This document shows positions 45,637-61,483 of a stretch of DNA of 64,000 nucleotides, one piece after another; positions within the stretch are counted from its first letter, which is position 1; the number at the start of each line of letters is the position of its first letter. Origin of the DNA: an uncultured Alphaproteobacteria bacterium. GTDB lineage: Bacteria > Pseudomonadota > Alphaproteobacteria > Rhizobiales > Xanthobacteraceae. The translations under genes were made by a program, and so were the position numbers. A model generated the notes under the pieces. The model ran no database searches. It was not told the origin of the DNA and saw only the letters and a list, made by a program, of their open reading frames with translations. The DNA lies in the NCBI GenBank assembly GCA_963850855.1, contig CAWKNH010000012.1, positions 32,752 to 96,751 of the forward strand, in the 5' to 3' direction.

Positions 45637-45709
45637 AACGGCTTAATTCTTGGCGGCAAGGCCGGTATGGTGCGTAGCGCCTGCTGGCTGCTGCGCCGGG
45701 AACCGATCC

Positions 45710-46048
45710 ATGAAGCTCGTGATTGCCATCATCAAGCCGTTCAAGCTCGAGGAGGTGCGCGACGCGCTCACCGCTCTCGGCATTCGCGGCATGACCATCA
45801 CCGAAGTCAAAGGTTATGGCCGGCAGAAGGGCCACACCGAGATCTATCGCGGCGCCGAATACGCGGTGAATTTTTTGCCGAAGATCCGCGTCGAAATCGC
45901 GGTCCCGGCAGACGAGGCCGACAGGGTGGTTGAGGCGATCGGCACCGCCGCCAAGACCGGGCAGATCGGCGACGGCAAGATCTTCGTGGTTCCGCTCGAT
46001 CACGCGGTGCGCATCCGCACCAGCGAGACCGATTCCGACGCGCTGTGA
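45710..46048 (+). CDS. PII nitrogen-regulatory protein (GlnK-like paralog 1)
   Basis: 112 codons from ATG 45710. MKLVIAIIKPFKLEEVRDAL... and T-loop GYGRQKGHTEIYRGAEY (Tyr51 present). Confidence 0.95.
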   Translation: MKLVIAIIKPFKLEEVRDALTALGIRGMTITEVKGYGRQKGHTEIYRGAEYAVNFLPKIRVEIAVPADEADRVVEAIGTAAKTGQIGDGKIFVVPLDHAVRIRTSETDSDAL

Positions 46049-46247
46049 GCGGCGCTTCCCGGAACCTCGGGTTCAAAGAATGAACTTGAATTCCGCCCAT
46101 CCGCGATATTCCGCTGACGCCTATTTCTTGTGCATTATGACTCATCTCTAGGCGAAGGCGTTGGATAGCGATGTGTGGCGGCGTCTATGCTGCCCGAAAA
46201 AGCGTCTGACGGCCGTCGATCCCCATCCCGCGCAGGCTAACCGGAAC

Positions 46248-46263
46248 TGGCACGCCGTTTGAT
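46248..46263 (+). promoter_or_regulatory. Sigma-54 (-24/-12) promoter candidate for glnK-amtB
   Basis: TGGCACGCCGTTTGAT versus consensus TGGCACG-N4-TTGCW. It matches all fixed positions except -12 GC to GA. It lies 110 nt upstream of the glnK ATG. Confidence 0.6.
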
Positions 46264-46372
46264 TCTCTTGAGCGGTAACGCCGCGGGACCGTAGGCCCGC
46301 GCGCGGTGGTCGCTTTTGCTTAGCCCGCCCATTCGCTGCGTCGCAGGAGCGGGCGACGGGGAGATTGCATCA

Positions 46373-46711
46373 ATGAAAATCGTCATGGCCATCATCAAGC
46401 CCTTCAAGCTCGACGAGGTCCGCGACGCGCTCACCAAGATCGGCGTTCAGGGACTGACCGTCACCGAGGTGAAGGGCTACGGGCGGCAGAAGGGCCACAC
46501 CGAAATCTATCGCGGCGCCGAATACGCCGTGAGCTTCCTGCCGAAGATCAAGCTCGAGATCGCCTGTGCGTCCAATCAGGTCGACAAGGTCATCGAGACC
46601 ATCACCACGGCGGCGAAAACCGGACAGATCGGCGACGGCAAGATCTTTGTCTTCGGCCTCGACCATGCGGTGCGCATCCGCACCGGCGAGACCGACGCCG
46701 CGGCCCTTTGA
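46373..46711 (+). CDS. glnK: PII nitrogen-regulatory protein GlnK
   Basis: 112 codons from ATG 46373 behind GGGGAGA. MKIVMAIIKPFKLDEVRDAL... with the T-loop Tyr51. amtB begins 34 nt downstream. Confidence 0.95.
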   Translation: MKIVMAIIKPFKLDEVRDALTKIGVQGLTVTEVKGYGRQKGHTEIYRGAEYAVSFLPKIKLEIACASNQVDKVIETITTAAKTGQIGDGKIFVFGLDHAVRIRTGETDAAAL

Positions 46712-46745
46712 GCTGACCCGCACCAAAATGGACAGGAGTGAAACC

Positions 46746-48194
46746 ATGACCTCGAAGATGTTCTCGCGTGCGGGGCTCGTTGCTCTCGCCGGAGCGATCC
46801 TGCTCGCCATCGTGCTGAGCCTGCCGGCATTCCATGCCTCCTACGCGCAGACTTCGGCGACGCCCGCGGCTCCCGCCGCCGCTCCGGCTGCGCCCGCGGC
46901 GGCGCCGGCCGAGCCGCCGCCGCCGGCTTGCGACGCCAAGACGCTCGAGAAGTGCACGCCCAATTCCGGCGACACCGCCTGGATGCTGACCTCGATGGCC
47001 ATCGTGCTGATGATGACCATTCCCGGTCTCGCCCTGTTCTATGGCGGCATGGTGCGCAAGAAGAACGTCGGCGATACGGTGATGACGAGCTTCGCCATCA
47101 CCTGCCTGGTCAGCATTCTCTGGCTGTTCTTCACCTACAGCCTCGCCTTCCGCTCGGGGACACCGTTCATCGGTGGGCTCGATCGCGCCTTCCTGCAAGG
47201 CATCGTCAGCGACTTTTCCAAGAACATCGGCAATCCCAATCCGCTGGCGCCGACCATTCCCGAGACCGTCTATTCGATGTTCCAGCTGACCTTCGCCATC
47301 ATCACCGCGGCGCTGATCGCCGGCTCTTTTGCCGAGCGCATGAAATTCTCGGCGATGCTCTGGTTCATCGGGCTGTGGGCGATCTTCGTCTATTCGCCGG
47401 TCGCGCACTGGGTATGGGGACCGGATGGCGTGTTCAACTCCGCCAACGACCAGGCGTGGTTCAAGGTTCTCGATTTCGCCGGCGGCACGGTGGTGCACGT
47501 CAATTCCGGCACCGCTGGGCTGATGGCCGCGCTCATGCTCGGCAAGCGCAAGGACACCGCGCCGCCGCACAATATGGTGCTGACCATGATCGGCGCCTCG
47601 CTCCTCTGGGTCGGTTGGTTCGGCTTTAACGCCGGCTCGGCGGTCAGCGCCGGGATGCAGGCGGGCATGGCGATGACGGTGACGCACCTCGCCACCGCGA
47701 CCGCCGGCTTCACCTGGATGATCGTCGAGTGGATCATGCGCGGCAAGCCGACGGTCATCGGCATCTGCTCCGGCGCCGTCGCCGGGCTCGTCGCCATCAC
47801 CCCGGCCTCCGGCTTTGTCGGCCCGATGGGGGCTTTCTGCATCGGCGTTGCCGCCGGCATCGTCTGCTATTGGGGCTGTACCGGCCTCAAGCACATGTTC
47901 GGTTATGACGATGCGCTCGATACCTTCGGCGTGCACGCGGTCGGCGGCGCGGCCGGCGCGCTCCTTACCGGCGTGTTCGCGGTCAGCGAATATGGCGGCA
48001 CCGCCGGATTGATCCAGGGCAATGCCGGCCAGGTCTTGAACCAGGCGGTCGGCATCGGCTGCGTGTTCGTCTACGACGTGGTCGTGACGTTGATCATCCT
48101 CAAGGTCGTCGATCTGGCGATCGGCCTTCGCGTCAGCGAGGATGTCGAGCGCGGCGGCCTCGATCTCGCGCTGCACGGGGAGACCGTGCAGTAG
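46746..48194 (+). CDS. amtB: Ammonium transporter
   Basis: Part of track ORF 46566..48194. ATG 46746 behind AGGAG (alternative ATG 46728). Signal/anchor sequence plus a PAA-repeat linker. Amt motifs ...DFAGGTVVHVNSG... and ...LDTFGVHAVGG... Confidence 0.95.
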   Translation: MTSKMFSRAGLVALAGAILLAIVLSLPAFHASYAQTSATPAAPAAAPAAPAAAPAEPPPPACDAKTLEKCTPNSGDTAWMLTSMAIVLMMTIPGLALFYGGMVRKKNVGDTVMTSFAITCLVSILWLFFTYSLAFRSGTPFIGGLDRAFLQGIVSDFSKNIGNPNPLAPTIPETVYSMFQLTFAIITAALIAGSFAERMKFSAMLWFIGLWAIFVYSPVAHWVWGPDGVFNSANDQAWFKVLDFAGGTVVHVNSGTAGLMAALMLGKRKDTAPPHNMVLTMIGASLLWVGWFGFNAGSAVSAGMQAGMAMTVTHLATATAGFTWMIVEWIMRGKPTVIGICSGAVAGLVAITPASGFVGPMGAFCIGVAAGIVCYWGCTGLKHMFGYDDALDTFGVHAVGGAAGALLTGVFAVSEYGGTAGLIQGNAGQVLNQAVGIGCVFVYDVVVTLIILKVVDLAIGLRVSEDVERGGLDLALHGETVQ

Positions 48195-48921: not shown

Positions 48922-51900
48922 ATGTCCTTGATGACGACGCGACGTTTCGCGCCTCTGTTCTGGTGCCAGTTCTTCTCGGCATTCGGGGATAATTTCCTCA
49001 AGACGGCGCTGGTCTTCGTCATCCTGTTCGAGGTGGCGGGCGCCAATTCGGCGGCTCTGGTCACGCTTGCCGGCGCGACGCTCATCGTCCCGTTCTTTTT
49101 CCTGTCCGGGCTCGGCGGCGAGCTCGCCGACCGCTACGACAAGGCCTTCATCGCGCGGCGCCTGAAGTTTGCCGAGATCGGCGTCGCGACGATCGCGGTC
49201 GCCGGCTTCGCCTTCCATTCGCTGATTATTCTTTTCGTCGCGGTGTTCCTGTACGGCACGATCGCTTCGCTGTTCGGCCCGATCAAATACGGCATCCTGC
49301 CCGACCATCTCGCCCGCTCGGAGCTGCCGGCCGGAAACGCGCTGGTCGAAGGCGGGACCTTCCTCGCCATCCTTCTCGGCACCATTGTCGCCGGTATCGC
49401 GGCCAGGGGCGGCAGCGATCCGATCCACTTCGCCTGGCTGATGATGGTGTCGGCGTTCGCCTGCTGGATCGCGAGCCGCTTCATCCCGCCGAGCGGGGAG
49501 GGCGCGCCCGAGTTGGTGATCAAACGCAACATCCTTGCTTCCACGGGAAGCCTCATCAAATACGTGCGCGCGGACGCCCGCTTGTGGTGGGGCTCGCTGG
49601 TGGTGAGTTGGTTCTGGCTCGTCGGCGCGCTGGTCCTGTCGCTGCTGCCGACCCTGGTGACGTTCGACATCGGCGGCACCGAGGCGGTGGTCACCGTGTT
49701 CCTCACCATCTTCTCGGTCGCGGTCGCCGTCGGCTCCGGTCTCGCCGCGTGGCTGGCGGCCGGGCGCATCATTCTCCTGCCGACGCTCGTCGGCGCCGCA
49801 TTGCTTGGGCTCTTTTGCCTCGATCTCGGCTGGACGGTTTCCGCCATCGTGCCGGCGGCGCATCCGATCGGCATCGGCGAGTACTTCGCATCGCGTTACA
49901 GCGTCCACACCGCGATCGATCTCGCCGGGGTCGCCATCGCCGGCGGCCTCTATATCGTGCCGAGCTTCACTGCGGTGCAGGCCTGGGCCGGCGCCGACCG
50001 CCGCGCCCGCGTGGTCGCCGCCGTCAACGTGCTCAACGCCGCCTTCATGGTGGTCGGCGCGATCATCCTCGCCGTGCTGCAGAAGCTCGGAATGAGCGTC
50101 GCGGTCCTGTTTGCGCTCCTCGGCGCCGCCAATCTGGTCATGGCCGTCATCATCGGCCGTACCATGCCGGCGAGCTGGCTGAACGATTTTCTTTCCATCG
50201 TCTTCCGCGCTTTCTATCACCTCGAAGTGAAGGGCCTGGAGAACGTCGCCAAGGCCGGCCACAACGCCATCATCGCGCTCAACCATGTGAGCTTCCTCGA
50301 TCCGCCGCTGGCGACCGCGATCTTGCCCAAGCGTCCGGTGTTCGCGATCGACGTGGCGATGGCGAGGAACTGGTGGATTCAGCCGTTCCTCAAATTCGTG
50401 CGCACCATGGCACTCGACCCGCTCAAGCCGATGGCGATGCGCACGATCATCAACGCGGTGCGCGACGGCGACATGCTGGTGATCTTCCCGGAAGGCCGCA
50501 TCACCGTCACCGGCAGCCTGATGAAGATCTATGACGGCGCCGCGCTGATCGCCGACAAGTCCGACGCAATGGTGGTGCCGGTGCGCATCGACGGCCCCGA
50601 GGTGACGGTCTTCAGCCGGCTCAAGAAGACCCAGGTCAACCGGAAATGGTTCCCGAAGATCAAGGTGACGATCCTCGAACCGATGAAGCTCAAGGTCGAT
50701 CCGGAGCTCAAGGGCCGCAAGCGGCGGCAGGCCGCCGGCGCCGCGCTCTACGACATCATGTCGAACCTGATTTTCTCCACCACCTCGACCGACCACACCA
50801 TTGTCGAGGGGGTGATCGACGCCGCCAAGGTACACGGCCGCAAATGGATCGCGATCGAGGACCCGCTCAGCGGTCAGCTGACCTACAAGCGGCTCCTGCA
50901 GGCGACTGCCATTCTCGGCGCCAAGCTGATGCCGCTCGCTGCCGAAGGCCGCGCGATCGGCGTCATGCTGCCGACCTCGAACGGCGCCGTGGTGACCGTG
51001 CTCTCGCTCCTCTCCGGCGGACGCGTTCCGGCGATGATCAACTTCACCGCCGGCGCCGCCAACGTCCTCGGCGCCTGCCGCGCCGCGCAGGTCGACACCA
51101 TTCTCACCGCCCGCGCCTTCGTGGAAAAGGCACGCCTGGAAAATCTCATCGCCCATCTCGAGAAGCAGGTGCGCATCGTCTATCTGGAAGACATTCGCCA
51201 GACGGTGACGTTCGCCGACAAGCTGCGCGGCGCGCTGCGGGCGAAAAAGCCGCTGGTCGCGCGCAAGCCCGACGACTGGGCGGTGATCCTTTTCACCTCC
51301 GGCACCGAAGGCACGCCCAAGGGCGTGGTCCTCTCCCATCGCAACGTGCTGGCGAACGTCGCCCAGGTCGAAGCCCGCATCGATTTCGGCCGCGAGGACA
51401 GGCTGTTCATGGCGATGCCGGTGTTCCATTCGTTCGGCTTCATGGGCGGCATCGTGCTGCCACTGGTTTCCGGCGTGCCGACTTATCTTTATCCGTCGCC
51501 GCTGCATTACCGCACCGTGCCGGAATTGGTCTACGGCATCTGCGCGACCTACATGTTCGGCACCGACACGTTCCTGGCCGGCTATGCGCGCATGGCCAAT
51601 GCGTATGATTTCCGCTCGCTGCGCTGCATCGTCGCCGGCGCCGAGCCGGTGAAAGAAGCGACCCGCCGGGTCTATCTGGAAAAGTTCGGCCTGCGCATTC
51701 TCGAAGGCTATGGCGTGACCGAGACCTCGCCGGTGCTGGCGCTCAACACGCCGATGTTCAACAAATTCGGCACCGTCGGCCGCCTGCTGCCGGCAATGCA
51801 GGCGCGGCTGGAGAAGGTCGAGGGCGTCGATGAGGGCGGTCGCCTCTTCGTCAAAGGGCCGAATGTCATGCTCGGCTATCTGCGCGCCGAAAAGCCCGGC

Positions 51901-52326
51901 GTGCTCGAAGCGCCGCCGGACGGCTGGTACGACACCGGCGACATCGTCACCATCGACGAGCAGGGCTACATCGCCATCAAGGGCCGCGCCAAGCGCTTCG
52001 CCAAGGTCGGCGGCGAGATGATCTCGCTCGCCGCCGTCGAGCTGCTGGCCGGCGAACTGTGGCCGAACAACATCTCCGCGGTGGCGGCATTGCCCGATCC
52101 GCGCAAGGGGGAGCGGCTCGTCCTGGTCACCGACAAGCACGGCGCGACGCGCAGCGATTTCCAGGTCTATGCGCGGAGCCAGCACGCCTCCGAGCTGATG
52201 CTGCCGGCGGAGATCATTGTGCTCGACAAGCTGCCGCTCCTCGGCTCGGGCAAGGTCGATTACCTGACCTTACAGAAATTCGTGCGCGATCAGGCGGCGG
52301 CGAAGGCCACCGTGGCGGCGGAGTGA
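48922..52326 (+). CDS. aas: Triple fusion: LplT-like MFS lysophospholipid transporter, PlsC-type acyltransferase, and acyl-ACP synthetase (Aas)
   Basis: 1134-aa track ORF. N-terminal ~400-aa MFS, acyltransferase motif NHVSFLD...FPEGRIT, and AMP-binding motif FTSGTEGTPKGV. Confidence 0.9.
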   Translation: MSLMTTRRFAPLFWCQFFSAFGDNFLKTALVFVILFEVAGANSAALVTLAGATLIVPFFFLSGLGGELADRYDKAFIARRLKFAEIGVATIAVAGFAFHSLIILFVAVFLYGTIASLFGPIKYGILPDHLARSELPAGNALVEGGTFLAILLGTIVAGIAARGGSDPIHFAWLMMVSAFACWIASRFIPPSGEGAPELVIKRNILASTGSLIKYVRADARLWWGSLVVSWFWLVGALVLSLLPTLVTFDIGGTEAVVTVFLTIFSVAVAVGSGLAAWLAAGRIILLPTLVGAALLGLFCLDLGWTVSAIVPAAHPIGIGEYFASRYSVHTAIDLAGVAIAGGLYIVPSFTAVQAWAGADRRARVVAAVNVLNAAFMVVGAIILAVLQKLGMSVAVLFALLGAANLVMAVIIGRTMPASWLNDFLSIVFRAFYHLEVKGLENVAKAGHNAIIALNHVSFLDPPLATAILPKRPVFAIDVAMARNWWIQPFLKFVRTMALDPLKPMAMRTIINAVRDGDMLVIFPEGRITVTGSLMKIYDGAALIADKSDAMVVPVRIDGPEVTVFSRLKKTQVNRKWFPKIKVTILEPMKLKVDPELKGRKRRQAAGAALYDIMSNLIFSTTSTDHTIVEGVIDAAKVHGRKWIAIEDPLSGQLTYKRLLQATAILGAKLMPLAAEGRAIGVMLPTSNGAVVTVLSLLSGGRVPAMINFTAGAANVLGACRAAQVDTILTARAFVEKARLENLIAHLEKQVRIVYLEDIRQTVTFADKLRGALRAKKPLVARKPDDWAVILFTSGTEGTPKGVVLSHRNVLANVAQVEARIDFGREDRLFMAMPVFHSFGFMGGIVLPLVSGVPTYLYPSPLHYRTVPELVYGICATYMFGTDTFLAGYARMANAYDFRSLRCIVAGAEPVKEATRRVYLEKFGLRILEGYGVTETSPVLALNTPMFNKFGTVGRLLPAMQARLEKVEGVDEGGRLFVKGPNVMLGYLRAEKPGVLEAPPDGWYDTGDIVTIDEQGYIAIKGRAKRFAKVGGEMISLAAVELLAGELWPNNISAVAALPDPRKGERLVLVTDKHGATRSDFQVYARSQHASELMLPAEIIVLDKLPLLGSGKVDYLTLQKFVRDQAAAKATVAAE

Positions 52327-52400: not shown

Positions 52401-53582
52401 TTATTGCCGATGCCACATGGTCGGACCGCTGCTACCGGTGATTTCGACGTCGTGCGCGTCCACGGCCCGATAGGTTCCGCTATTGGATTGGCCGGTAACG
52501 GCCGAAATCGTGCGCCATTGCTGGTCGGAAGCGACACAATCGCCGTTGTCCTCCGCCCGCCCTTGGTAGTGGTAGGTGCCATTAGGATTGTTCTGGATCG
52601 TTAGCGTCCACGTCACGCCGCCTTGCACGGCCGTGGCGCGCCAGGTCCCGAGCATGACCGGATTGGCTGGGTCGATCGGAGCGGCCGGCTGCACCGGCCG
52701 GAATATGGCGACGCCCGTGGCACTTCTCACCTCGATCGCTGCATTGCCGACGGCGCGGTAGGTCCCGGTGCGCACGCGGCCGGTCCTGGCGTTGGAGGTG
52801 CGGTATTTGCCGCTGGCGGATTGGTAGGTGCCGTCCTCTTCCGCCGTCGTGACCAAGCGATAGCTTCCGCTCGGCTCGATGGAATAGATGAGGCGCCAAT
52901 CGTAATCGTCGACGACGCCCTCGTGTTCGAAGGTGCCGACCAGGACGGGATCAACGCTTGGCTTGACGGGCTGAGCTGCAGGCTGCGCGAGCGTCGACGG
53001 AGGCGCGGGAGCCTGCGGTCCCGGCGTCACCGCAACAAACCGCCAGAGTCCGATCGCACCTCCGGTCAACCCGAGACACGTCAATGCAATTGCGGCCGCT
53101 ACGCGGCCGTTTGCTCCGATCCACGATGCCGGAGAGCCGGAGACGATACTCGGCGAGACGATGCGCGGTGGCGCGGGATCGATCTGCAAAAGTGCTTTCA
53201 CGGTTTCGGCGAGCCGGCGCAGATGCGTCTCCAGCGGCGGCGTGAGCGCGTCGAGCCAATGGACGGTGCCGATGAAATATTCGAGCGATCGCGTGGGCGC
53301 GATGTCCTGGATGCGCAGGGGGATGATCGGGACCCCTTTGCTCACCGCCCGCTCGACCTCGCGCCGAATCTGCGGCGAGTCGTTGGCGTTTGCCGAGAAG
53401 ATCAGGATCAGCACGCGGCAATGGTTGATGCCTTCGATAATCGCCTCGCCCCATTCCGCACCCGGCACGATGTCGCGCGGCGCGATCCAACAGCGAATCC
53501 CGGACCCCTCCAGGGCGGCACAGGTGGCGTCTGCGGCTGCCTTGTCGTGGGTCGAGTAGCTGATGAATGCGTCGTGAGACAT
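52401..53582 (-). CDS. TIR-domain protein: N-terminal TIR, single TM helix, tandemly duplicated extracytoplasmic beta-rich module
   Basis: Track ORF 52401..53642. ATG 53580-53582 gives MSHDAFISYSTHDK... (an alternative ATG at 53642 adds 20 aa). TIR motifs FISYS, IRCWIAPRDI and LIFSANANDSPQIRREVE. TM at about aa 161-185. Repeats at aa 211-297 and aa 304-392. Confidence 0.85.
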   Translation of the reverse strand: MSHDAFISYSTHDKAAADATCAALEGSGIRCWIAPRDIVPGAEWGEAIIEGINHCRVLILIFSANANDSPQIRREVERAVSKGVPIIPLRIQDIAPTRSLEYFIGTVHWLDALTPPLETHLRRLAETVKALLQIDPAPPRIVSPSIVSGSPASWIGANGRVAAAIALTCLGLTGGAIGLWRFVAVTPGPQAPAPPSTLAQPAAQPVKPSVDPVLVGTFEHEGVVDDYDWRLIYSIEPSGSYRLVTTAEEDGTYQSASGKYRTSNARTGRVRTGTYRAVGNAAIEVRSATGVAIFRPVQPAAPIDPANPVMLGTWRATAVQGGVTWTLTIQNNPNGTYHYQGRAEDNGDCVASDQQWRTISAVTGQSNSGTYRAVDAHDVEITGSSGPTMWHRQ

Positions 53583-53645
53583 TTGGTGTGACGGAATGGT
53601 CGCGAACCCGACGAGCCGATGCTGCCGGCAAGTATCTCGCATATT

Positions 53646-54857
53646 TTAGCAAATGATTCCTTGCGCGCGCAGTTCGACGATCCGCTCCTCGCTGACGCCT
53701 TGCTCGCGCAAGATCGCCTCGCTGTGCTCGCCGATTAGCGGCGCCGGCGTGGCGTGCTGCTTTTCCACGCCGGCGATCCACATCGGGCTGCTGACGGTGT
53801 AACCGCCGCCGCTCAACGGCACGATCACCCCGTTGCCGTGCATTTGCCGGTCGTGGAGCGCGTCGCTCGGCCGGGCCACCATGGCCACCACGAAGCCTTT
53901 CGACTCGAGAAGACGCATCCAGTCCTCGGCATTGCGTTGCAGAAAAAGCTCATCGAGCAGGGCCAGCAGGGCGCCGGCATTCCTGAACCGGGCCGGCCGG
54001 TCGATGAAGCGCGGGTCTTCGGCGAGGTCCGGCCGCCCGATGGTTTCGGCAAAGACCGACCAAAGCCGCGGGTCCTGGGCGACACCGATCGCGAGCAGGA
54101 GCCAGCGATCGTCGCGGCAGCGGTAGTGGTTGGAGAGCGCATTGAGCGCTTCGCTGCGCGGCGGCCGTGGGATGAAGCGGGCTCCGTCGAGGCCGGCCTG
54201 GATGAAGCAGGCATTGGCCCAAGCGCCGTTCGCCATCAGCGAACTGCCGACCTCGGCGCCTTTGCCGGTGCGCTCGCGCTGGAACAGCGCGGTGACGATC
54301 GCGCCATAAAGGGCGAGCGCCGTCGGATGGTCGCCCATGCCGGGCACGGATCGCGCCGGCAGGCTCTGCGCGTCCGGGCGCACCTGGTCCATCAGGCCGG
54401 AGCGCGCCCACCAGGCCGTGGAGTCAAAGCCCGGCTTGTTCGCCTCGGCGCCGTGTTCGCCATAGGCGGTGAGCGACGCATAGATCAGGCGCTCGTTGAG
54501 ATGCGAAAGCTGGTCGAAGGCGATGCCGAGGCGGCGCCGGACCGGCGGCGGATGGTTGGTGATGAACACGTCGGCGCCGAGGACGAGATCGTGGACGATC
54601 TTCCGCGCCTCCGGACGTTTGAGATCGAGCGCCAGGCTGCGCTTGTTGCGGGCGTCGACCGTCCAGCAATAGTCCTTCTCGCTCACCGGCATGCCGGGCT
54701 GAAAGGAAAGGTTGCGGAAGGCATCGCCGGTGCCGGGGGGCTCGATCTTGATCACCTCCGCGCCGAAATCGGCCATGATGGTTGCTGCTGCGGGCGCCGC
54801 AATGAAGCTCGCCGCATCGAGCACCTTGAGCCCGGAGAAAATGCCTGGCTTGCTCAC
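53646..54857 (-). CDS. Family-III CoA-transferase (CaiB/BaiF-like)
   Basis: Track ORF 53646..54959. GTG 54855-54857 behind GGGAGGGA. N-terminal ...GLKVLDAASFIAAPAAATIMADFGAEVIKIEPP... Confidence 0.85.
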   Translation of the reverse strand: MSKPGIFSGLKVLDAASFIAAPAAATIMADFGAEVIKIEPPGTGDAFRNLSFQPGMPVSEKDYCWTVDARNKRSLALDLKRPEARKIVHDLVLGADVFITNHPPPVRRRLGIAFDQLSHLNERLIYASLTAYGEHGAEANKPGFDSTAWWARSGLMDQVRPDAQSLPARSVPGMGDHPTALALYGAIVTALFQRERTGKGAEVGSSLMANGAWANACFIQAGLDGARFIPRPPRSEALNALSNHYRCRDDRWLLLAIGVAQDPRLWSVFAETIGRPDLAEDPRFIDRPARFRNAGALLALLDELFLQRNAEDWMRLLESKGFVVAMVARPSDALHDRQMHGNGVIVPLSGGGYTVSSPMWIAGVEKQHATPAPLIGEHSEAILREQGVSEERIVELRAQGIIC

Positions 54858-54901
54858 GCGAAGGTCCCTCCCTGATCGGCGGAACATTCCATGAGCCGGC
54901 A

Positions 54902-55990
54902 TTATCCGGCAAGCGCGGATCGCTGCGTTGGCTGCCGCCGCGTGATCCGCCACTCCCAAGCCGGATCGCCGCGATCGCGCCGGCCGGCGACTTCCACGCG
55001 CAGCCAGCGGTCATGCGCGAGCGCCGCTCCGACCCACAGCTCGTTCCATGCATCGAAAACGGGCGGCGCAAGATCGTCACGCTCTTCCATCAACCGCCAC
55101 GTGGTCTGTCGCACCGTCCAGCTCTCGCCGCTGCCGCTTACCGATGCGTCGTCGCCTTGCGCCCGGGCGAGCCGCGCCAGATACGCCGCGAATCCCTCAG
55201 CGCCTGGAGCGATGCCGCCGAGAAGCGCCGTGGTGTCATCGAACATCTGCATGCCGATCTGCCGTGCGGCCAGTCCGACGACAGCGCCTCCGTCGGTCGG
55301 CCCGAGCACCGCGATTGCTTCCGGCAAGCTCGAGGTGACGTATTCCATGGCATAGTTGCGCAGCACCTTCTGCAGCCGCGCCGCCGGCCAGCTCTCGGTG
55401 GGCAGGCGCGGGGTGTCTTCGGCGCGAAAAGGCGGACACTCCTCGCCGGGCGAGAACTGCAGTCGTTCCTCCGGCGCCAGATCGCGGTCCCATTCCTTGT
55501 AATAGCCTTCGAGGCCGGGCTGGCCGTCGACGGTTTGCCCGGTGCACACGAAGCCGAGCCGCGGATTTCCGAGCACGACGCCATTGTTGCCGTGCCAGCC
55601 TCCGAGCATGGCGCGCGAGACCTCGGTCGGGATGCCGCAGACCGCCGTGCCCGACCAGATCCAACGCGGCGGCGGATAGCGGACCCAGGCCTTGCGGTCG
55701 CTCTCATAAGCATATTCGACCTTCACGCCGCCGACCTGGTTCGACAGGTAGTGGTATTGCGCGCAGGCGACGGCGTGCGGCAGCCGGTCGAGGCCGAGCT
55801 TCTTCAGCCCCGGCAGGAAGCGGGCAAGCTGCTGGCGGCGAAACGTGCGAAACACCACTTCGGCCGCCTGAGCTTTGCCGGCCCGGGTGACGAGCGCGAG
55901 AATGAGGCCGGTCAGGTAGGCGTGATAGATCGTGGCGACGGCCGCATAGGCTGCGGTGTCGTCAACTTTGGCGGTTCCGGCTGCGGACAT
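54902..55990 (-). CDS. Hypothetical protein (362 aa), no family recognised
   Basis: Track ORF with ATG behind GAGGGA. High third-position GC and non-repetitive composition consistent with real coding. 44 nt upstream of the CoA-transferase and divergent from the gctA-like gene. Confidence 0.7.
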   Translation of the reverse strand: MSAAGTAKVDDTAAYAAVATIYHAYLTGLILALVTRAGKAQAAEVVFRTFRRQQLARFLPGLKKLGLDRLPHAVACAQYHYLSNQVGGVKVEYAYESDRKAWVRYPPPRWIWSGTAVCGIPTEVSRAMLGGWHGNNGVVLGNPRLGFVCTGQTVDGQPGLEGYYKEWDRDLAPEERLQFSPGEECPPFRAEDTPRLPTESWPAARLQKVLRNYAMEYVTSSLPEAIAVLGPTDGGAVVGLAARQIGMQMFDDTTALLGGIAPGAEGFAAYLARLARAQGDDASVSGSGESWTVRQTTWRLMEERDDLAPPVFDAWNELWVGAALAHDRWLRVEVAGRRDRGDPAWEWRITRRQPTQRSALAG

Positions 55991-56971: not shown

Positions 56972-57756
56972 GCGCGCCGGGCGGCATGAGCGCGCCTGGC
57001 GGCATGGCGCCGGACTATTCCTCCCGCGAGCTTCTGATCGTAACCATCGCCGGGCTGCTCGACGGGGTTCGCCACGTCGCCGTCGGCGCTTCTTCCCCGA
57101 TCCCCGCCGCCGGCGCCATGCTGCTGCGGGCGCGCAACGAAATGAGCGGGCGGGAAGCCGTGCGCATTTCCATCCTCGGCTCGCAGGAGCACAATTTCTT
57201 CACCAATGGCGGCGCCGAAGTGTTCGACTGCGCCGCGCAGGGCCGCATCGACGCATTCTTTCTCGGCGGCGGCCAGATCGACGGTCAGGCGAATATCAAT
57301 CTCGTCGGCACCGGCGATTATCCGACCAATGAGGTGCGCTGGCCCGGCTGCTTCGGTTCGGCCTTTCTGTATTTCCTGGTGCCGCGCGTCATCCTGTTCC
57401 GCGAAGAGCATTCGCCGCGCGTGTTCGTGGAGAAGGTCGATTACATCAGCGCGCCGGGTACGAGCGAAGGCGTCGCGCGAACGGGCGGCCCTTATGCGCT
57501 GTTGACCGGCATGGCGCTCTTTTCCTTCGATCCGGCGCGCAAGCGATTTGCCTTGCGCAGCGTGCACGCCGGCGCGACCGCGGCCGTGGTGCGCGCCAAC
57601 ACCGGCTTCGGCTACGATGCGCCGGCCGATCCGCCGCAGACCAAAGCGCCGGACGAGGCGACGCTGACAATTCTGCGCGGCCGCGTGACGCAAGAGCTGG
57701 CCGAGACCTATCCGCAATTCGCGCAGCTTTTGCGCAGCGAACGCGCCGCCGCATAG
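56968..57756 (+). CDS. CoA-transferase subunit B (family I)
   Basis: Last 262 codons of track ORF 56851..57756. The ATG overlaps the subunit A stop (ATGA). ...LLIVTIAGLL...VAVGASSPIP... and ...GGGQIDGQANINLVG... Confidence 0.75.
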   Translation: MSAPGGMSAPGGMAPDYSSRELLIVTIAGLLDGVRHVAVGASSPIPAAGAMLLRARNEMSGREAVRISILGSQEHNFFTNGGAEVFDCAAQGRIDAFFLGGGQIDGQANINLVGTGDYPTNEVRWPGCFGSAFLYFLVPRVILFREEHSPRVFVEKVDYISAPGTSEGVARTGGPYALLTGMALFSFDPARKRFALRSVHAGATAAVVRANTGFGYDAPADPPQTKAPDEATLTILRGRVTQELAETYPQFAQLLRSERAAA

Positions 57757-57992
57757 ACGCAATCGGTGCCGGCGTCGAGAAATGAAATCGTTGAATCGAT
57801 TGAGCAGATAAATCTAGCGGTTGCTTGCCGAATTTATTTTCCCTCCGAGAGTTAGGCGACATTAGAGCGTGTCTGTCGCGACTGCGACGCGGCTTCGACA
57901 TCAGAACGACATACTTGTCGCTCAACCTCAGATTTCATTTCGACATTCTGCGTATTGGTCACTGCAAATGTTCTCATCCGGGGGGCTCAACC

Positions 57993-60900
57993 ATGGGATC
58001 GAGCGGCATTTCGGCGGAGCTATATCTTTGCGTTAACGGCAATTCTGAAATCAAAAGCGCGCGGGGTGCGTCGTCGGCATCCTCGTGCATCGTCGGTTTG
58101 ACGGTCCTCGGGGCCTGCTGCATCGGTTTCGTGTCAAGCGGGCAGGCGGACGTCTACATCAACGACAGATATCCGATCAGCAATCCCGCCCGCGGCGGGA
58201 ATTCGCTCTCGCCGCCGCACATCGCGGCGACGAATGAATGCTCGACGCACGTCTACGTCGATTCGTTCATCCCGAAGGCGACGATTCGCGTCTATCTCAA
58301 CGGCACGACGACGATCATCGGCAGCGCCACGCCGCAAACCGGATTTGCCGCGATCCCGCTGTCACAGCAATTGCAGGTCGGCGACAAGGTCACCGCGACG
58401 CAGACCGTCAACGGCGTGGTCAGCGCGCCGTCGGCTGCGGCGGTCATCGACGACATGCCGAAAATCTTGCCGAAGCCGACCGTTGATCCGAACATCTATG
58501 CGTGCGGGCGCATTGTGCCGGTGCGCGGCCTCCTTTCCGGGGTCACCGTGCAGGTCACGGATGAAACGGCGCATGCGCCGCTCGGGTCGGGATCGACGCC
58601 GAACCTTTGGGGCAGCGACTGGGGTCCGATCGGCACCACGCCGCTCGCCGCCGGCCATCAAGTCACCGCCACGCAGACGGCGTGCAAAGGAAAGCCCAGC
58701 GACGCTTCCGCGCCGGCGACCGTCATGGGCGACCCGATGCCGATGGTCAGCCCGAAACTCGTGCCGCCGGTGGTCGGCAACGACACGCTCACCGTCGACA
58801 GCGTCTATACCGGCGCCGACCTCGCAGCCGTGAATATCGCGGTCAACCCGCCGGCGTCGCTCGGCGGCGGATTCGCCACTTCGCCCAATGTCTGGATGGA
58901 GCTGGCGCAGCCGCTGACCGCGACCGAGGACATCACCGTTGCCGAGAAGCTGTGCAGCAACGATACGGCCAAGTCGACGCCGGAAAAGCCGGTCGCCACA
59001 TTGACTCCTCCCGTGCTGCTCGGACCGATCTGCCCGGATCAGGCCGACGTCAAGGTGAGCGGCACGACACTAAACGCCACGCTCGTCCTCCTCAAGAACG
59101 GCTCGATCGTCGGCTATGGCGGTGCGGCGCCGGGCGACGCCGTTCTCGACGTCGCTCCGCCCAACGCGTTCGCGGTCGGCGACAAGGTCAGCGTGGTCGA
59201 GTACATCGGCACGATCGTTGCGCATAGCTCGAATATCGTCACGGTGAACTGCGCCGCGCAGAACGTCGTGACCCAGCACAACGACAATGCGCGCCAGGGA
59301 GCTCAGCTGCACGAGACCAAACTAACGCCGAGTACGGTCAGCGGTCCGAATTTCGGCCTGCTCTACGATCGCCACGTGCTGGGGACGTTGTTGGCGCAAC
59401 CGCTTTACGTGCACGGCGTGAATATCAAGAACGAGATCAGAAACGTGATCTTTGCCGCGACCGCGGCGGACATCGTCTACGCATTCGATGCCGACGACGT
59501 CTCCGCCGACACCACGACAAGCGTGAACGGATACGACAACAACGGCAATTTGGTCCCGCTCCCGGAATCGACAAAATGGCTCTGGCGCGCTTCGCTCGGG
59601 ACGCCGCACGTCGGGGACATCTGCGGAGAGACGGTGCCGCCGATCGTCGGCATTACCAGCGCGCCGGTGATCGACGTGAGCGCCGGCGTCATGTACGTCG
59701 TCGCGCGCGACCAGCACGACGAGCACGGCATGGGCCACGATTACCTGCATGCGCTCGACATCGAGACCGGCCACGACCTGCGCAACCGTCAGGTCAAAGC
59801 GACCGATCCGGTGCATGGCTTCGTATTCAACGACGCATGTCAGCGCCAGCGCCCGGCGCTGCTTCTGCAGAACGGCGTGGTCTATCTCGGTTACGGGACC
59901 TATACGTGCGACGCCGCTTGTTCCAGCACCGAGCCCTACCGAGGTTGGATCCTGGGCTTCCGTGCGACCGACTTCGCGCCCGCCGGCGCGTTCACAAACT
60001 CGCAAAGCTACGGCGAGGGCGGAATGGGTGTATGGGCGTCCGGCAACGGTCTCGCCGGCAGCGATGACGGCTCGATCTTCTACCAAACCGGAAACGACAT
60101 AGACTCGAGCCTCGCCGTGCTCGGCGATTCGTTCGTCAAGCTGCACGGCGACGGAAAGACGCTGTCGATGACGTCGCACTATCAGCCGCCGGCCGCGGAC
60201 GATTACCGGGCGGGCGATACGGATCTCGGTGCCGGCGGTCCCATGCTGCTGCCGAACGGCAAACTCATCGGCGGCGGCAAGGACGGCATGTTTTTCACCC
60301 TGTCGCAGAGCGATCTGAGTTCGAAGCCGGCGAGCTTTCAGGCTTTCTTCAATACGTTCCACCTGCCGACTCCCGGCACGGCGGGTCTCGATCCCAGCGA
60401 TTCTCTCATTCCCAATCCCTATTACAATTCACCCACGACTTATTCCGCCAAATGTCCGCCCGCGAGCGTCTTTGGCGTCGCCGACGAAGGGCAGCCCTGT
60501 TACATCGACGTCGCCGACTACAAGAACGGCGAGTCGTTCGGACCCAACATCCATTTGGGTCCGGTGTTCTGGCGCGATTCCGACAAGCACGGCTTTGTCT
60601 ACAAGATGGCCGAGAAGGACTATCTCAAAGCGTTCGACTACGACATCGGCGCGGGAACGGTCAGCGGGAAGCCCGCGGCGGTCGCCACCGTGCGGCCGGC
60701 CAAAGACGGCATGCCCGGCGGCTTCAGCTCCATCTCAGCCAATGGGCGCTCGCACGGTATCGTCTGGACCGTCGTGCAGCAGGCCAACGGCATGTTTGGC
60801 GCTCCGACGCCGGCGCTTCTCTACGCCAACGATGCGACAAATCTGAAAGAACTCTGGAACAACGACAAGGACCGCGTCGCGCTCGCCAAGTTCACGGCGC

Positions 60901-61483
60901 CGACGATCGCCGACGGCCGGGTGATACTGCCGAGCGCGGGGCTCTTTCAAGTCTATGGGATTTCCGAGCATCGGCAGGATGCACGAGATCGTCAACGTGC
61001 CGCTCGAGGCGGCCGTCAGCCAGCGATGGCTCAACACCGGCGGAGCACAGGGATTGCTTGGTCATCCGCAAGGCGACCTCCAGCGCGACGCCAATGGCGG
61101 TGTGCGCCAGGATTTCCAAACAATGATCGCCGGGGGCGGTTACGGCCAAGTGAGCGTACCGCCTTCGGTCCAGATCGAGCCGCCAATGTGCGATTCGCGG
61201 GTCAAATATGAGCCGAGCGTGTCGGTGGCGGCGTCGCTCTTCGCCTCACCGAAGACCGGCGTGCACTATATCGTGGGAGAGATCCGAGACAAGTTCCTGC
61301 AGGCCGGCGGGCTCGAGCAGTTCGGTTATCCGCTGACCGATGAGATTCCCGACGCCCGACGGCTTCGGACTTATGACCCAGTTCGAGCGTGGCACGATCT
61401 TCTGGTATCCGGGCCGGAATGCCGAGATCGGCGAACCGAAGACGCCGCCGCTGCACGTCCTGCCGATGAAGGAACATCATTAG
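57993..61483 (+). pseudogene. Large secreted Ig-like-repeat / beta-propeller / LGFP-repeat protein gene, broken as sequenced by two +1 frameshifts
   Basis: Frame 1 is track ORF 57825..61211 (ATG 57993, signal-like ...GLTVLGACCIGFVSSGQA/DV). Frame 2 is track ORF 60955..61539, which carries the LGFP repeats. Frame 3 runs from ~61358 to the stop at 61481-61483 (DGFGLMTQFERGTIFWYPG...). The junctions are at a TTT run (60961-60963) and a CCC run (61355-61357). Confidence 0.75.

What the first reader, a model, noticed from the sequence alone, without database searches (positions are those of the whole stretch)
52401..53582. Membrane-anchored TIR protein with a TLR-like topology: cytoplasmic TIR (catalytic Glu retained), one TM helix, and a tandemly duplicated extracytoplasmic module
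Residues 1-95 form a TIR domain (MSHDAFISYSTHDK..., GIRCWIAPRDIVPGAEW, VLILIFSANANDSPQIRREVERAV). The segment S-x5-S-x5-E aligns position for position with the SxxYAxSxWCLxEL helix of plant and animal TIRs. This places Glu75 at the NAD+-cleaving catalytic position.

Residues 96-130 (LEYFIGTVHWLDALTPPLETHLRRLAETV) are the conserved post-TIR helix seen in many bacterial TIR_2 proteins.

A single hydrophobic helix follows (about aa 161-185, VAAAIALTCLGLTGGAIGLWRFVAV), then a Pro/Ala linker, then two copies of an ~85-aa beta-rich unit:
- DPVLVGTFEHEG..WRLIYSIEPSGSYRL..EEDGTY..GKYRT..RTGTYRAVGNAAIEV...IFRP
- DPANPVMLGTWRAT..VTWTLTIQNNPNGTYHY..EDNGDC..QQWRT..NSGTYRAVDAHDVEI...MWHR

I cannot assign that unit to a family. 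Because there is no signal peptide, the TIR must be cytoplasmic and the repeats periplasmic. This is a receptor-like layout in which an envelope or periplasmic cue could gate a TIR NADase or signal-generating enzyme.

The gene is visibly lower in G+C than the core genes around it. It sits at a convergent junction with aas. No SIR2/ThsA, CBASS, Pycsar or STING partner is nearby.
Basis: partly seen in the sequence, partly recalled or inferred. Interest (0 to 1): 0.72.

Follow-up and report, generated by a model that had tools for sequence, protein, structure and literature searches.

The report
Membrane-anchored bacterial TIR receptor-like protein
This gene encodes a real bacterial protein with an inside-facing TIR enzyme domain, one membrane helix and a duplicated outside-facing sensor-like module, and it belongs to a large, uncharacterised soil-bacterial family that looks like a receptor version of known TIR immune signalling systems.

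Summary
Window 52401-53582(-) encodes a 393-aa protein with four parts:
- a TIR domain (Pfam TIR_2, E 1.9e-21), which spans aa 1-135 rather than 1-95;
- a disordered linker;
- one hydrophobic helix (aa ~161-183), conserved as a property in all 84 orthologues;
- a tandem duplicated ~88-aa beta module (31% identity, E 3e-15) with no Pfam family.

Glu75 sits at the catalytic position and is invariant. The usual Trp four residues upstream is an invariant Gln.

The same module follows signal peptides in other proteins. It is also attached to Ser/Thr kinases, caspases and CHAT domains. This supports an extracytoplasmic location.

The TIR head is 57-91% identical in at least 576 loci across many phyla. 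Nearly all carry a membrane helix, and their C-terminal domains vary (Sel1, WD40, BNR, PAN, YARHG, DUF4189).

About a fifth of the 80 related loci examined carry adjacent SLATT pore-effector and/or TrkA_N-RyR genes. One is an orthologue whose head is 81% identical to the window's. This matches the logic of cADPR-signalling type VII Thoeris. The window copy has no partner and lies among metabolic genes.

Most likely it is an extracytoplasmically gated, NAD+-cleaving TIR signal generator. I rate it a new variant of a known kind.

The parts
52401..53582 (-). Whole gene: 393-aa TIR / membrane helix / 2x beta-module protein (stop codon 52401-52403). An alternative upstream ATG at 53642 would add 20 non-conserved residues.
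   Evidence: ORF list; start shared with orthologues; more than 120 full-length homologues at 50-93% identity.
53178..53582 (-). TIR domain, aa 1-135.
   Evidence: Pfam TIR_2 E 1.9e-21. AF2 model and Foldseek TMt 0.78-0.84 to complete TIR domains. Mean pairwise identity 80% among orthologues and 57-91% across phyla.
53460..53477 (-). BB-loop motif R36-D-I-V-P-G41. This is an 'RDxxPG' Box-2-like motif inside the invariant RCWIAPRD.
   Evidence: Invariant columns. Box 2 is described as typically absent from prokaryotic TIRs in PMC7075850.
53358..53372 (-). Active-site helix segment Q71-I-R-R-E75. Glu75 is at the catalytic position and Gln71 replaces the usual Trp.
   Evidence: Profile alignment to 6wt6 and TLR6. 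Invariant in alignments A2 and A3. The motif FSxxANxSPQIxRE is shared with SLATT/RyR-linked relatives. A 40%-identical viral relative has SLWVKGEL at the same place.
53103..53177 (-). Pro-rich cytoplasmic linker, aa 136-160, predicted disordered.
   Evidence: pLDDT below 50 over aa 136-207; 30% identity among orthologues.
53034..53102 (-). Single transmembrane helix, aa ~161-183, rich in small residues (G173xxxG177) and ending at conserved W180.
   Evidence: Hydropathy peak 1.94. All 84 orthologues have a 19-mer of at least 1.87. Net charge is +2.1 on the N-side against +1.0 on the C-side. W180 is conserved.
52956..53033 (-). Pro/Ala-rich extracytoplasmic linker, aa 184-209.
   Evidence: Sequence; low pLDDT; variable length in orthologues.
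52692..52955 (-). Beta module, copy 1, aa 210-297.
   Evidence: BLASTP against copy 2: 31% identity, E 3e-15. Seven strands, pLDDT above 90.
52404..52667 (-). Beta module, copy 2, aa 306-393. Begins with an LGTW (GxW) motif.
   Evidence: A profile of the unit finds 337 clusters, nearly always with two matched stretches.
53646..55990 (-). Upstream same-strand genes: CoA-transferase family III (53646-54959) and an unknown 362-aa ORF (54902-55990). These are context, possibly co-transcribed, and not part of the system.
   Evidence: Pfam. The same order occurs in Xanthobacteraceae locus L001 and in ENA contigs. No PADLOC hit. No promoter-like site lies between them and the TIR gene.
48922..52326 (+). 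Convergent neighbour aas (MFS + acyltransferase + AMP-binding). Context only.
   Evidence: Pfam.

Best explanation
The gene encodes a type II single-pass inner-membrane protein. An N-terminal catalytic TIR domain sits on the cytoplasmic face. A tandem pair of lipocalin-like beta modules sits in the periplasm.

Proposed steps, all inferred:
1. A cue outside the cytoplasm binds or clusters the ectodomains. The cue could be a small ligand, an envelope component or a phage or competitor protein.
2. Both linkers are long and disordered, so activation would work by bringing TIR heads together on the membrane rather than by a rigid conformational relay.
3. The assembled TIRs cleave NAD+ at the Glu75 site.
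4. The product is most likely a cyclic-ADP-ribose-type nucleotide. It would act on SLATT pore proteins and/or TrkA_N-RyR channel-like proteins. Those genes are adjacent in many relatives. In this genome they are unlinked or absent, and in the latter case NAD+ depletion itself would be the output.

Shown here:
- the domain anatomy, the conservation of the active-site Glu and the duplication;
- the extracytoplasmic use of the module in other proteins;
- the variable-ectodomain superfamily and the gene linkage in relatives.

Not shown: enzymatic activity, the product, the ligand and the biological role.
For: - **TIR fold and catalytic Glu.** Glu75 is invariant in 84 orthologues and 78 superfamily members.
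- **Membrane helix.** It is conserved as a physical property in 84 of 84 orthologues, with a positive-inside charge bias.
- **Module location.** The module follows signal or lipoprotein leaders in P0147, P0152, P0159, P0165 and P0261. It lies after a membrane helix in kinase P0231. It also accompanies caspase and CHAT domains.
- **Closest solved fold.** The best match is the periplasmic bile-sensing ToxS domain, probability 0.99-1.0.
- **Superfamily.** At least 576 loci were found. Heads are 57-91% identical. Nearly all have a membrane helix. Tails include DUF4189, Sel1, YARHG, DUF4185, BNR, PAN_4, WD40 and TPR.
- **Gene linkage.** 17 of 80 loci carry SLATT/DUF4231 genes and 12 of 80 carry TrkA_N-RyR genes.
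- **Linked orthologue.** P0073 has a head 81% identical and a tail 57% identical to the window protein. It lies in a cluster of SLATT-like 608 aa, TrkA_N, RyR and TIR genes.
- **Literature.** TIR+SLATT is type VII Thoeris and signals with canonical cADPR (bioRxiv 10.64898/2025.12.03.692087). RyR-domain proteins bind or cleave cADPR isomers (PMC13232231).
Against: - No effector gene lies within the 64-kb window, and no PADLOC hit lies in the neighbourhood.
- Most close orthologues are solo genes among metabolic or housekeeping genes.
- Trp at -4 of the catalytic Glu is Gln in the whole superfamily. From memory, that Trp is important in characterised TIR NADases. Activity or product may therefore differ.
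- Topology rests on hydropathy and on analogy. No dedicated predictor was available, and AF2 gives low confidence for aa 136-207.
- The ectodomain fold match is weak (E 0.04, TMt 0.43-0.47).
- No ligand is known.
- In other assemblies of the same organism the gene is frameshifted.
Confidence: 0.55

Rival explanations
1. Tether-and-release model. The membrane helix holds a constitutively assembly-competent TIR NADase in check. An envelope cue sensed by the ectodomain triggers proteolysis, as in regulated intramembrane proteolysis of anti-sigma factors. The released TIR forms filaments and depletes NAD+, causing growth arrest or death. No second messenger or partner is needed.
For: - Long disordered linkers flank the helix on both sides and would be protease-accessible.
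- Most orthologues are solo genes.
- Amoeba TirC is a TIR NADase that cells tolerate only with its transmembrane tether, and its authors propose release by proteolysis (PMC13142454).
- The same module occurs in secreted caspase and CHAT proteins.
Against: - No protease gene is linked in the window.
- Linkage of relatives to SLATT and RyR genes argues for a diffusible signal rather than depletion alone.
- No cleavage motif was identified.
Confidence: 0.15
2. A physiological second-messenger receptor rather than an immune one. The protein reports an environmental or envelope condition through an ADPR-derived nucleotide that tunes ion flux (TrkA_N-RyR channel-like proteins) or other housekeeping targets.
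For: - The gene lies among metabolic genes: glnK-amtB, aas and CoA-transferases. There are no defence-island features.
- The gene order is conserved with a Xanthobacteraceae relative whose flanking proteins are 86% identical.
- The TIR head is unusually conserved for an immune gene: 80% among orthologues and a median of 66% across phyla.
- Some relatives are linked to TrkA_N (RCK-type) proteins.
- The same module serves receptor Ser/Thr kinases.
Against: [quoted passage not shown]
- The paralogue clusters, the shuffled ectodomains and an IS-flanked copy (L102) look like conflict-system behaviour.
- Orthologue contexts vary from genome to genome.
Confidence: 0.2
3. A non-enzymatic TIR. The head is a protein-interaction scaffold, as classically assumed for TLR, MyD88 and TIRAP. 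It would recruit other TIR paralogues or partners at the membrane.
For: - Gln replaces the conserved Trp at -4.
- The closest PDB sequence matches are adaptor or receptor TIRs (TIRAP, TRR-2, TLR1/2/6), and the BB loop is Box-2-like RDxxPG.
- Second TIR paralogues lie adjacent in several loci: L024, L035 and L103.
Against: - Glu75 and a dense set of residues near the active site are invariant across phyla.
- Linkage to nucleotide-responsive SLATT and RyR proteins is hard to explain without an enzymatic product.
- The structural match to substrate-analogue-bound AbTir is as good as the match to adaptor TIRs.
Confidence: 0.08

Closest known systems
Type VII Thoeris (ThsB TIR + ThsH SLATT effector; canonical cADPR signal), bioRxiv 10.64898/2025.12.03.692087
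   Same: Both have a TIR protein with a catalytic Glu. In about 20% of related loci, and in orthologue P0073, the TIR gene is adjacent to a SLATT/DUF4231 multi-TM protein. The logic of a TIR-made nucleotide acting on a membrane effector fits.
   Different: - The TIR protein here is itself membrane-anchored and carries an extracytoplasmic domain. The paper text I searched mentions transmembrane helices only for effectors.
- The window copy has no adjacent effector and is not in a defence island.
- ThsB_TIR Pfam scores below its cut-off (19.7 against 21.2).
- Many linked loci add a TrkA_N-RyR gene.
Animal Toll-like / IL-1 receptors
   Same: Both combine an outside sensing domain, one membrane helix and a cytoplasmic TIR. 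Both have Box 1 (FISYS) and a Box-2-like RDxxPG loop. Both form a family with one conserved TIR and many ectodomains, with several paralogues per genome.
   Different: - The chain order is inverted (type II, with no signal peptide).
- The ectodomains are unrelated (no LRR or Ig domains).
- The output is probably enzymatic (NAD+ cleavage) rather than adaptor recruitment.
- No homology beyond the TIR fold is implied.
ToxS periplasmic domain (Vibrio ToxR/ToxS bile sensor), PDB 8u2f / 8alo
   Same: It is the best structural match to the C-terminal module. It is also a membrane-anchored, periplasmic, lipocalin-like up-and-down beta structure used for sensing.
   Different: The match is weak (E 0.04, TMt 0.43-0.47, 8-10% identity). 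The module here is a tandem duplicate. There is no sequence-family membership.
Dictyostelium TirC (TM-tethered TIR NADase of bacterial origin), PMC13142454
   Same: Both are TIR NADases attached to a single hydrophobic helix, with the tether proposed to restrain toxic oligomerisation.
   Different: In TirC the helix is N-terminal and there is no ectodomain. It is eukaryotic and belongs to a different TIR lineage (TIR-STING-like).
Bacterial receptor Ser/Thr kinases (kinase / TM / extracytoplasmic sensor)
   Same: The same tandem module occupies the extracytoplasmic sensor position in kinases P0173 and P0231.
   Different: The output domain is a kinase rather than a TIR.

Membership tests
TIR domain (Pfam TIR_2, PF13676) | Profile match above the curated threshold | tested here: met
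   77.3 bits against a cut-off of 28, E 1.9e-21, aa 6-113 matching profile positions 2-109 of 122.
TIR domain (Pfam TIR_2, PF13676) | Flavodoxin-like TIR fold | tested here: met
   In the AF2 model, residue blocks within aa 1-130 have mean pLDDT 57-90. Foldseek gives TMt 0.78-0.84 and rmsd 2.4-2.7 Å to TRR-2 and AbTir.
Catalytic (NAD+-cleaving) TIRs | Glutamate at the catalytic position of the helix after strand C | tested here: met
   Glu75 aligns with the Glu of SEWSKFE in 6wt6 and with the Glu of SLWVKGEL in a 40%-identical viral relative. It is invariant.
Catalytic (NAD+-cleaving) TIRs | Aromatic residue (Trp) four residues before the catalytic Glu | tested here: not met
   Gln71 is invariant in orthologues and present in at least 90% of the superfamily. 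The importance of this Trp is recalled from the literature and was not tested here.
Catalytic (NAD+-cleaving) TIRs | Measured NADase or cyclase activity | not testable with these tools
   Requires biochemistry.
Thoeris (type VII in particular) | TIR gene in an operon with an effector gene (SLATT for type VII) | tested here: not met
   No SLATT or TrkA_N-RyR homologue lies in the 64-kb window (tblastn). The neighbours are metabolic genes. The feature is met in relatives L015, L033, L059, L063, L064 and L103, among others.
Thoeris (type VII in particular) | ThsB-type TIR profile | tested here: not met
   ThsB_TIR scores 19.7 bits, below the 21.2 cut-off. PADLOC ThsB gives E 0.062.
Thoeris (type VII in particular) | Phage-triggered production of a cADPR-type signal and phage protection | not testable with these tools
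   Requires experiments.
Toll-like / IL-1 receptor architecture | Ectodomain, single TM helix and cytoplasmic TIR | tested here: met
   The topology is inferred, not measured.
Toll-like / IL-1 receptor architecture | Type I orientation (signal peptide, N-terminal ectodomain, C-terminal TIR) with an LRR or Ig ectodomain | tested here: not met
   The TIR is N-terminal and there is no signal peptide. The ectodomain is an unrelated beta module.
Toll-like / IL-1 receptor architecture | Box 2 (RDxxPG) motif in the BB loop | tested here: met
   R36-D-I-V-P-G41 is conserved. The motif definition is taken from PMC7075850.
Lipocalin-like / ToxS-like periplasmic beta domains | Sequence-profile or significant fold match | tested here: inconclusive
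   - Lipocalin_4: 18 bits, below the 22.4 cut-off.
- Foldseek to ToxS: probability 0.99-1.0 but E 0.036-0.074 and TMt 0.43-0.47.
- PDB profile search: only TbpB barrels, at E 0.09.

The most novel reading that the evidence does not exclude
This protein is one member of a prokaryotic pattern-recognition-like receptor repertoire. A near-invariant cytoplasmic TIR head is combined by domain shuffling with dozens of different extracytoplasmic sensor domains, often as several paralogues per genome. The head converts outside cues into a cADPR-type messenger that opens SLATT pores and RyR-domain/TrkA_N channel proteins. That would be a bacterial counterpart of both TLR-style surface sensing and cADPR-to-RyR signalling. 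It would also be the first Thoeris-like system whose trigger is sensed outside the cytoplasm.
Probability: 0.3. Interest if true: 0.85.

Novelty: new variant of a known kind. Interest (0 to 1): 0.66.

Why it matters
Known bacterial TIR systems (Thoeris, TIR-STING, SPARTA, Avs/TIR-NLR) sense infection inside the cell. How TIR sensors are triggered is still largely open.

A TIR whose sensor part faces the periplasm would add a new input layer: sensing at the envelope, possibly before or during phage entry, or sensing of competitors or environmental ligands.

The family gives a ready-made natural experiment. The same TIR head is joined to many ectodomains, with or without SLATT and RyR partners.

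The family also bears on two evolutionary questions:
- whether receptor-type 'ectodomain / membrane helix / TIR' designs arose independently in bacteria and animals;
- whether the cADPR-RyR connection predates eukaryotes.

It is abundant in soil Acidobacteriota, Alphaproteobacteria, Chloroflexota and Planctomycetota, which defence-system surveys based on cultured genomes cover poorly.

Tried and rejected
1. **Named defence or NCBI families.** PADLOC and NCBIfam gave only weak TIR-level hits for the protein. PADLOC gave nothing for ten neighbours apart from one 18-bit LmuA hit on a glycerol-3-phosphate dehydrogenase. The locus is not a recognised defence system.

2. **Pfam family for the C-terminal module.** There was no consistent hit across 29 orthologous tails. 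A PDB sequence-profile search gave only TbpB at E 0.09. Foldseek against viral models gave one 'lipoprotein' with TM-score about 0.2. All were rejected as assignments.

3. **A universally conserved neighbour.** All-against-all clustering of flanking ORFs in 80 loci found none. Only the SLATT and TrkA_N-RyR sets recur across phyla. Other clusters reflect synteny among close relatives, for example fabZ/lpxA and TctC.

4. **Phage origin.** IMG/VR holds only a 40%-identical 180-aa TIR + SEC-C protein. Rejected.

5. **Recent horizontal acquisition judged from G+C.** The difference is too small. The gene order is shared with a relative whose flanking proteins are 86% identical. An 18-nt 17/18 direct repeat brackets the gene, but this may be chance.

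6. **Exact look-up of the window protein.** It is not on record. The same locus was found through the frameshifted P0107 instead.

7. **Burroughs et al. 2015 (NAR).** This is the original SLATT description. It could not be retrieved. Statements about it come from later papers that cite it.

8. **Literature searches for membrane-anchored bacterial TIR receptors.** These found nothing relevant. That is not proof of absence.
Full report

Yes. The minus-strand ORF 52401..53642 is present. The longer form from the ATG at 53642 adds 20 non-conserved, non-hydrophobic residues.

Pfam TIR_2 matches at E 1.9e-21, 77 bits against a cut-off of 28, over aa 6-113. An AlphaFold2 model built on 84 orthologues superposes on complete TIR domains over about 130-140 columns. 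TMt is 0.79-0.84 to Hydra TRR-2 and 0.78 to AbTir with a substrate analogue. The domain is therefore aa 1-135.

A hydrophobic 19-mer peaks at aa 161-179 with Kyte-Doolittle 1.94. Residues 210-297 and 306-393 align without gaps at 31% identity, E 3e-15. A model of the tail alone has pLDDT 93 and pTM 0.84, with seven strands per unit.

**2. The active site**

A profile of the family aligned to the oyster TIR-STING chain 6wt6 puts Glu75 on the Glu of SEWSKFE and Gln71 on the Trp. The alignment to TLR6 agrees. A 40%-identical viral relative has the canonical SLWVKGEL at the same place.

Glu75 is invariant in 84 orthologues and in 78 members of the wider superfamily. Gln71 is invariant in the orthologues and present in at least 90% of the superfamily. 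The family lacks the Trp that accompanies the Glu in most TIRs. I recall that Trp as functionally important, but I could not test this.

The BB loop reads RCWIAPRDIxPG. This is an RDxxPG 'Box 2', which a published survey describes as typical of TLR, IL-1R, MyD88 and TIRAP and usually absent from prokaryotic TIRs (PMC7075850). That explains why the best PDB sequence hits are animal receptor and adaptor TIRs.

**3. Topology**

No dedicated predictor was available. The evidence is as follows:
- There is no N-terminal signal peptide. The chain begins with strand A of the TIR.
- All 84 orthologues keep a hydrophobic 19-mer of at least 1.87 in a segment that is otherwise only 30% identical. Net charge is +2.1 on the N-side against +1.0 on the C-side.
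- A profile of the single module was searched against 1.84 billion representative proteins. It finds 337 clusters, nearly always with two matched stretches.
- In many of those proteins the module comes directly after a Sec or lipoprotein signal peptide (P0147, P0152, P0159, P0165, P0261). In kinase P0231 it lies after a membrane helix.

The module is thus an extracytoplasmic domain in other contexts. Of 79 longer hits, 36 carry TIR_2, 4 a caspase domain and 4 a protein kinase. In a separate scan of ten hits, one (P0208) carried a CHAT domain. Others carry TPR, Sel1 or WD40 repeats.

The compartments match a TLR, but the chain order is inverted (type II, N-terminus inside).

**4. What is the module?**

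No Pfam family fits. The best solved-structure match is the periplasmic lipocalin-like domain of Vibrio ToxS, with probability 0.99-1.0 but E 0.04 and TMt 0.43-0.47. A sequence profile reaches only TbpB barrels at E 0.09. I describe it as an unassigned up-and-down beta module with a GxW start, possibly lipocalin-like. It is not a member of any named family.

**5. The wider family**

In the 80 loci retrieved, the first ~135 residues are 57-91% identical to the window's, with a median of 66%. The loci come from Alphaproteobacteria, Acidobacteriota, Planctomycetota, Chloroflexota, Gemmatimonadota, Dadabacteria, Thermodesulfobacteriota and others.

About 70 of the 80 have a hydrophobic helix 15-120 residues after the TIR. 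The tails differ: DUF4189, Sel1, YARHG, DUF4185, BNR/PSII_BNR, PAN_4, 3-keto-disaccharide-hydrolase-like, WD40 and TPR. Only 14 share the window's module.

Several MAGs contribute two loci, and some loci hold two TIR-TM genes side by side.

Among orthologues the head is 80% identical on average, the repeats 59% and the linker plus helix 30%. The pattern is a constrained head with changeable sensors.

**6. Gene context**

In the window the gene lies 63 nt downstream of a CoA-transferase III gene, which is preceded by an unknown 362-aa ORF. It is convergent with aas. Further neighbours are glnK-amtB, CoA-transferase subunits and a lyase. None hits PADLOC. No tRNA or Rfam element is present.

The same order occurs in a Xanthobacteraceae MAG (L001), where aas and the CoA-transferase are 86% identical and the TIR protein 73%. 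Other orthologues sit in unrelated contexts, and one lies next to IS elements.

Clustering the flanking ORFs of the 80 loci showed no universal partner. It did show two recurrent sets that cross phylum boundaries:
- proteins of about 500-650 aa with SLATT_1/DUF4231 domains, in 17 loci;
- membrane TrkA_N-RyR proteins, in 12 loci.

These sets include members with the window's own module: L015, L032, L045 and L055 with SLATT, and L006 with RyR.

Orthologue P0073 has a head 81% and a tail 57% identical to the window protein. It lies in a cluster made of a second TIR-TM gene, a 608-aa four-TM SLATT-like protein (E 2.5e-51 to the L015 protein), a TrkA_N protein, a RyR protein and the TIR gene itself. 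The active-site motif FSxxANxSPQIxRE is shared by linked and unlinked heads.

**7. Comparison with what is known**

TIR next to SLATT is an established theme. It was predicted by the Aravind group (as cited in PMC7159879 and PMC9503650). It has since been validated as type VII Thoeris, in which the TIR makes canonical cADPR and the SLATT protein ThsH is the effector. The same preprint mentions TIRs next to predicted ion channels (bioRxiv 10.64898/2025.12.03.692087). RyR-domain proteins were recently shown to bind or cleave cADPR isomers (PMC13232231).

In the texts I could search, I did not find a TIR component that is itself a membrane protein with an extracytoplasmic domain. The original SLATT paper could not be retrieved. 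I therefore cannot exclude that the architecture has been listed somewhere.

**8. Mechanism**

The best-supported reading is a receptor-like TIR. An outside cue clusters the ectodomains. Both linkers are disordered, so proximity rather than a rigid relay would assemble the TIR heads. Those heads cleave NAD+ at Glu75.

In relatives the product would act on adjacent SLATT and RyR/TrkA_N proteins. For the window copy the targets are unlinked or missing.

Rivals are:
- release of the TIR by proteolysis of the tether, for which there is a precedent hypothesis in amoeba TirC;
- a physiological rather than immune messenger role, suggested by the metabolic context, the conserved gene order and the very conserved head;
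- a purely scaffolding TIR, suggested by Gln71 and the adaptor-like motifs.

None can be settled without biochemistry.

**9. Verdict**

The protein is a member of a large, uncharacterised, receptor-like branch of TIR proteins. I rate it a new variant of a known kind (TIR nucleotide signalling), with interest of about 0.66.

Noticed in passing
window ~52969-52971 (codon ~205 of the TIR gene); loci L082-L084: Assemblies of the same organism from several ENA samples (99.6-99.9% identical over the gene region; 99.8% over ~13 kb for L082) carry a 1-nt deletion in a CCC run. It splits the gene into 304-aa and 124-aa ORFs. The window copy is intact. This could be a long-read homopolymer error or a real inactivating polymorphism.
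   Followed up: partly
L103:837-7137: Five-gene cluster around orthologue P0073:
- a second TIR-TM paralogue (429 aa, opposite strand);
- a 608-aa four-TM SLATT-like protein;
- a TM-TrkA_N protein (451 aa);
- a RyR-domain protein (161 aa);
- the TIR-TM-2x-module gene.

Similar clusters of TIR, TrkA_N-RyR and SLATT occur in Acidobacteriaceae loci L033, L035, L056, L067 and L069.
   Followed up: partly
window 52191-52208 and 53612-53629: An 18-nt direct repeat matching at 17 of 18 positions brackets the TIR gene. One copy lies inside the 3' end of aas and the other just upstream of the TIR start. My rough chance expectation is about 0.05. It could be a relic of insertion or a coincidence.
   Followed up: no
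window 57500-61211: A low-G+C stretch (0.55-0.59 at 57500-58250) lies at the start of a 1128-aa ORF (57825-61211, +). The ORF has no Pfam or PADLOC hit. The ENA gene call for the same region has only a weak LGFP-repeat hit.
   Followed up: partly
L087-L100 (IMG/VR contigs), e.g. L087:6001-6543: A group of viral contigs encodes a 180-aa protein with a TIR head 40% identical to the window's. It shares the IRCWIAPRDI loop but has the canonical SLWVKGEL. It also carries a C-terminal SEC-C-type zinc motif (CPCGSGRKYKDCHG).
   Followed up: partly
L102:6001-10302: Orthologue P0027 (71% identical) is immediately followed by ISL3-family and rve-family transposase genes. It is preceded by many tiny ORFs. 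This suggests that some copies lie in mobile or decaying regions.
   Followed up: no
window 45650-48194: Two P-II (GlnK/GlnB-like) genes lie in tandem ahead of an ammonium transporter gene. The second P-II ORF, as listed, overlaps the long form of the amtB ORF. This is an ordinary nitrogen-regulation locus.
   Followed up: no
L085:5199-7796 and L101:3242-5497: In two syntenic orthologue loci the divergently transcribed upstream gene encodes a large protein (865 and 751 aa) next to minCDE. The 865-aa protein is a WD40-repeat protein. The 751-aa one had no Pfam hit on record. No functional link to the TIR gene was tested.
   Followed up: no
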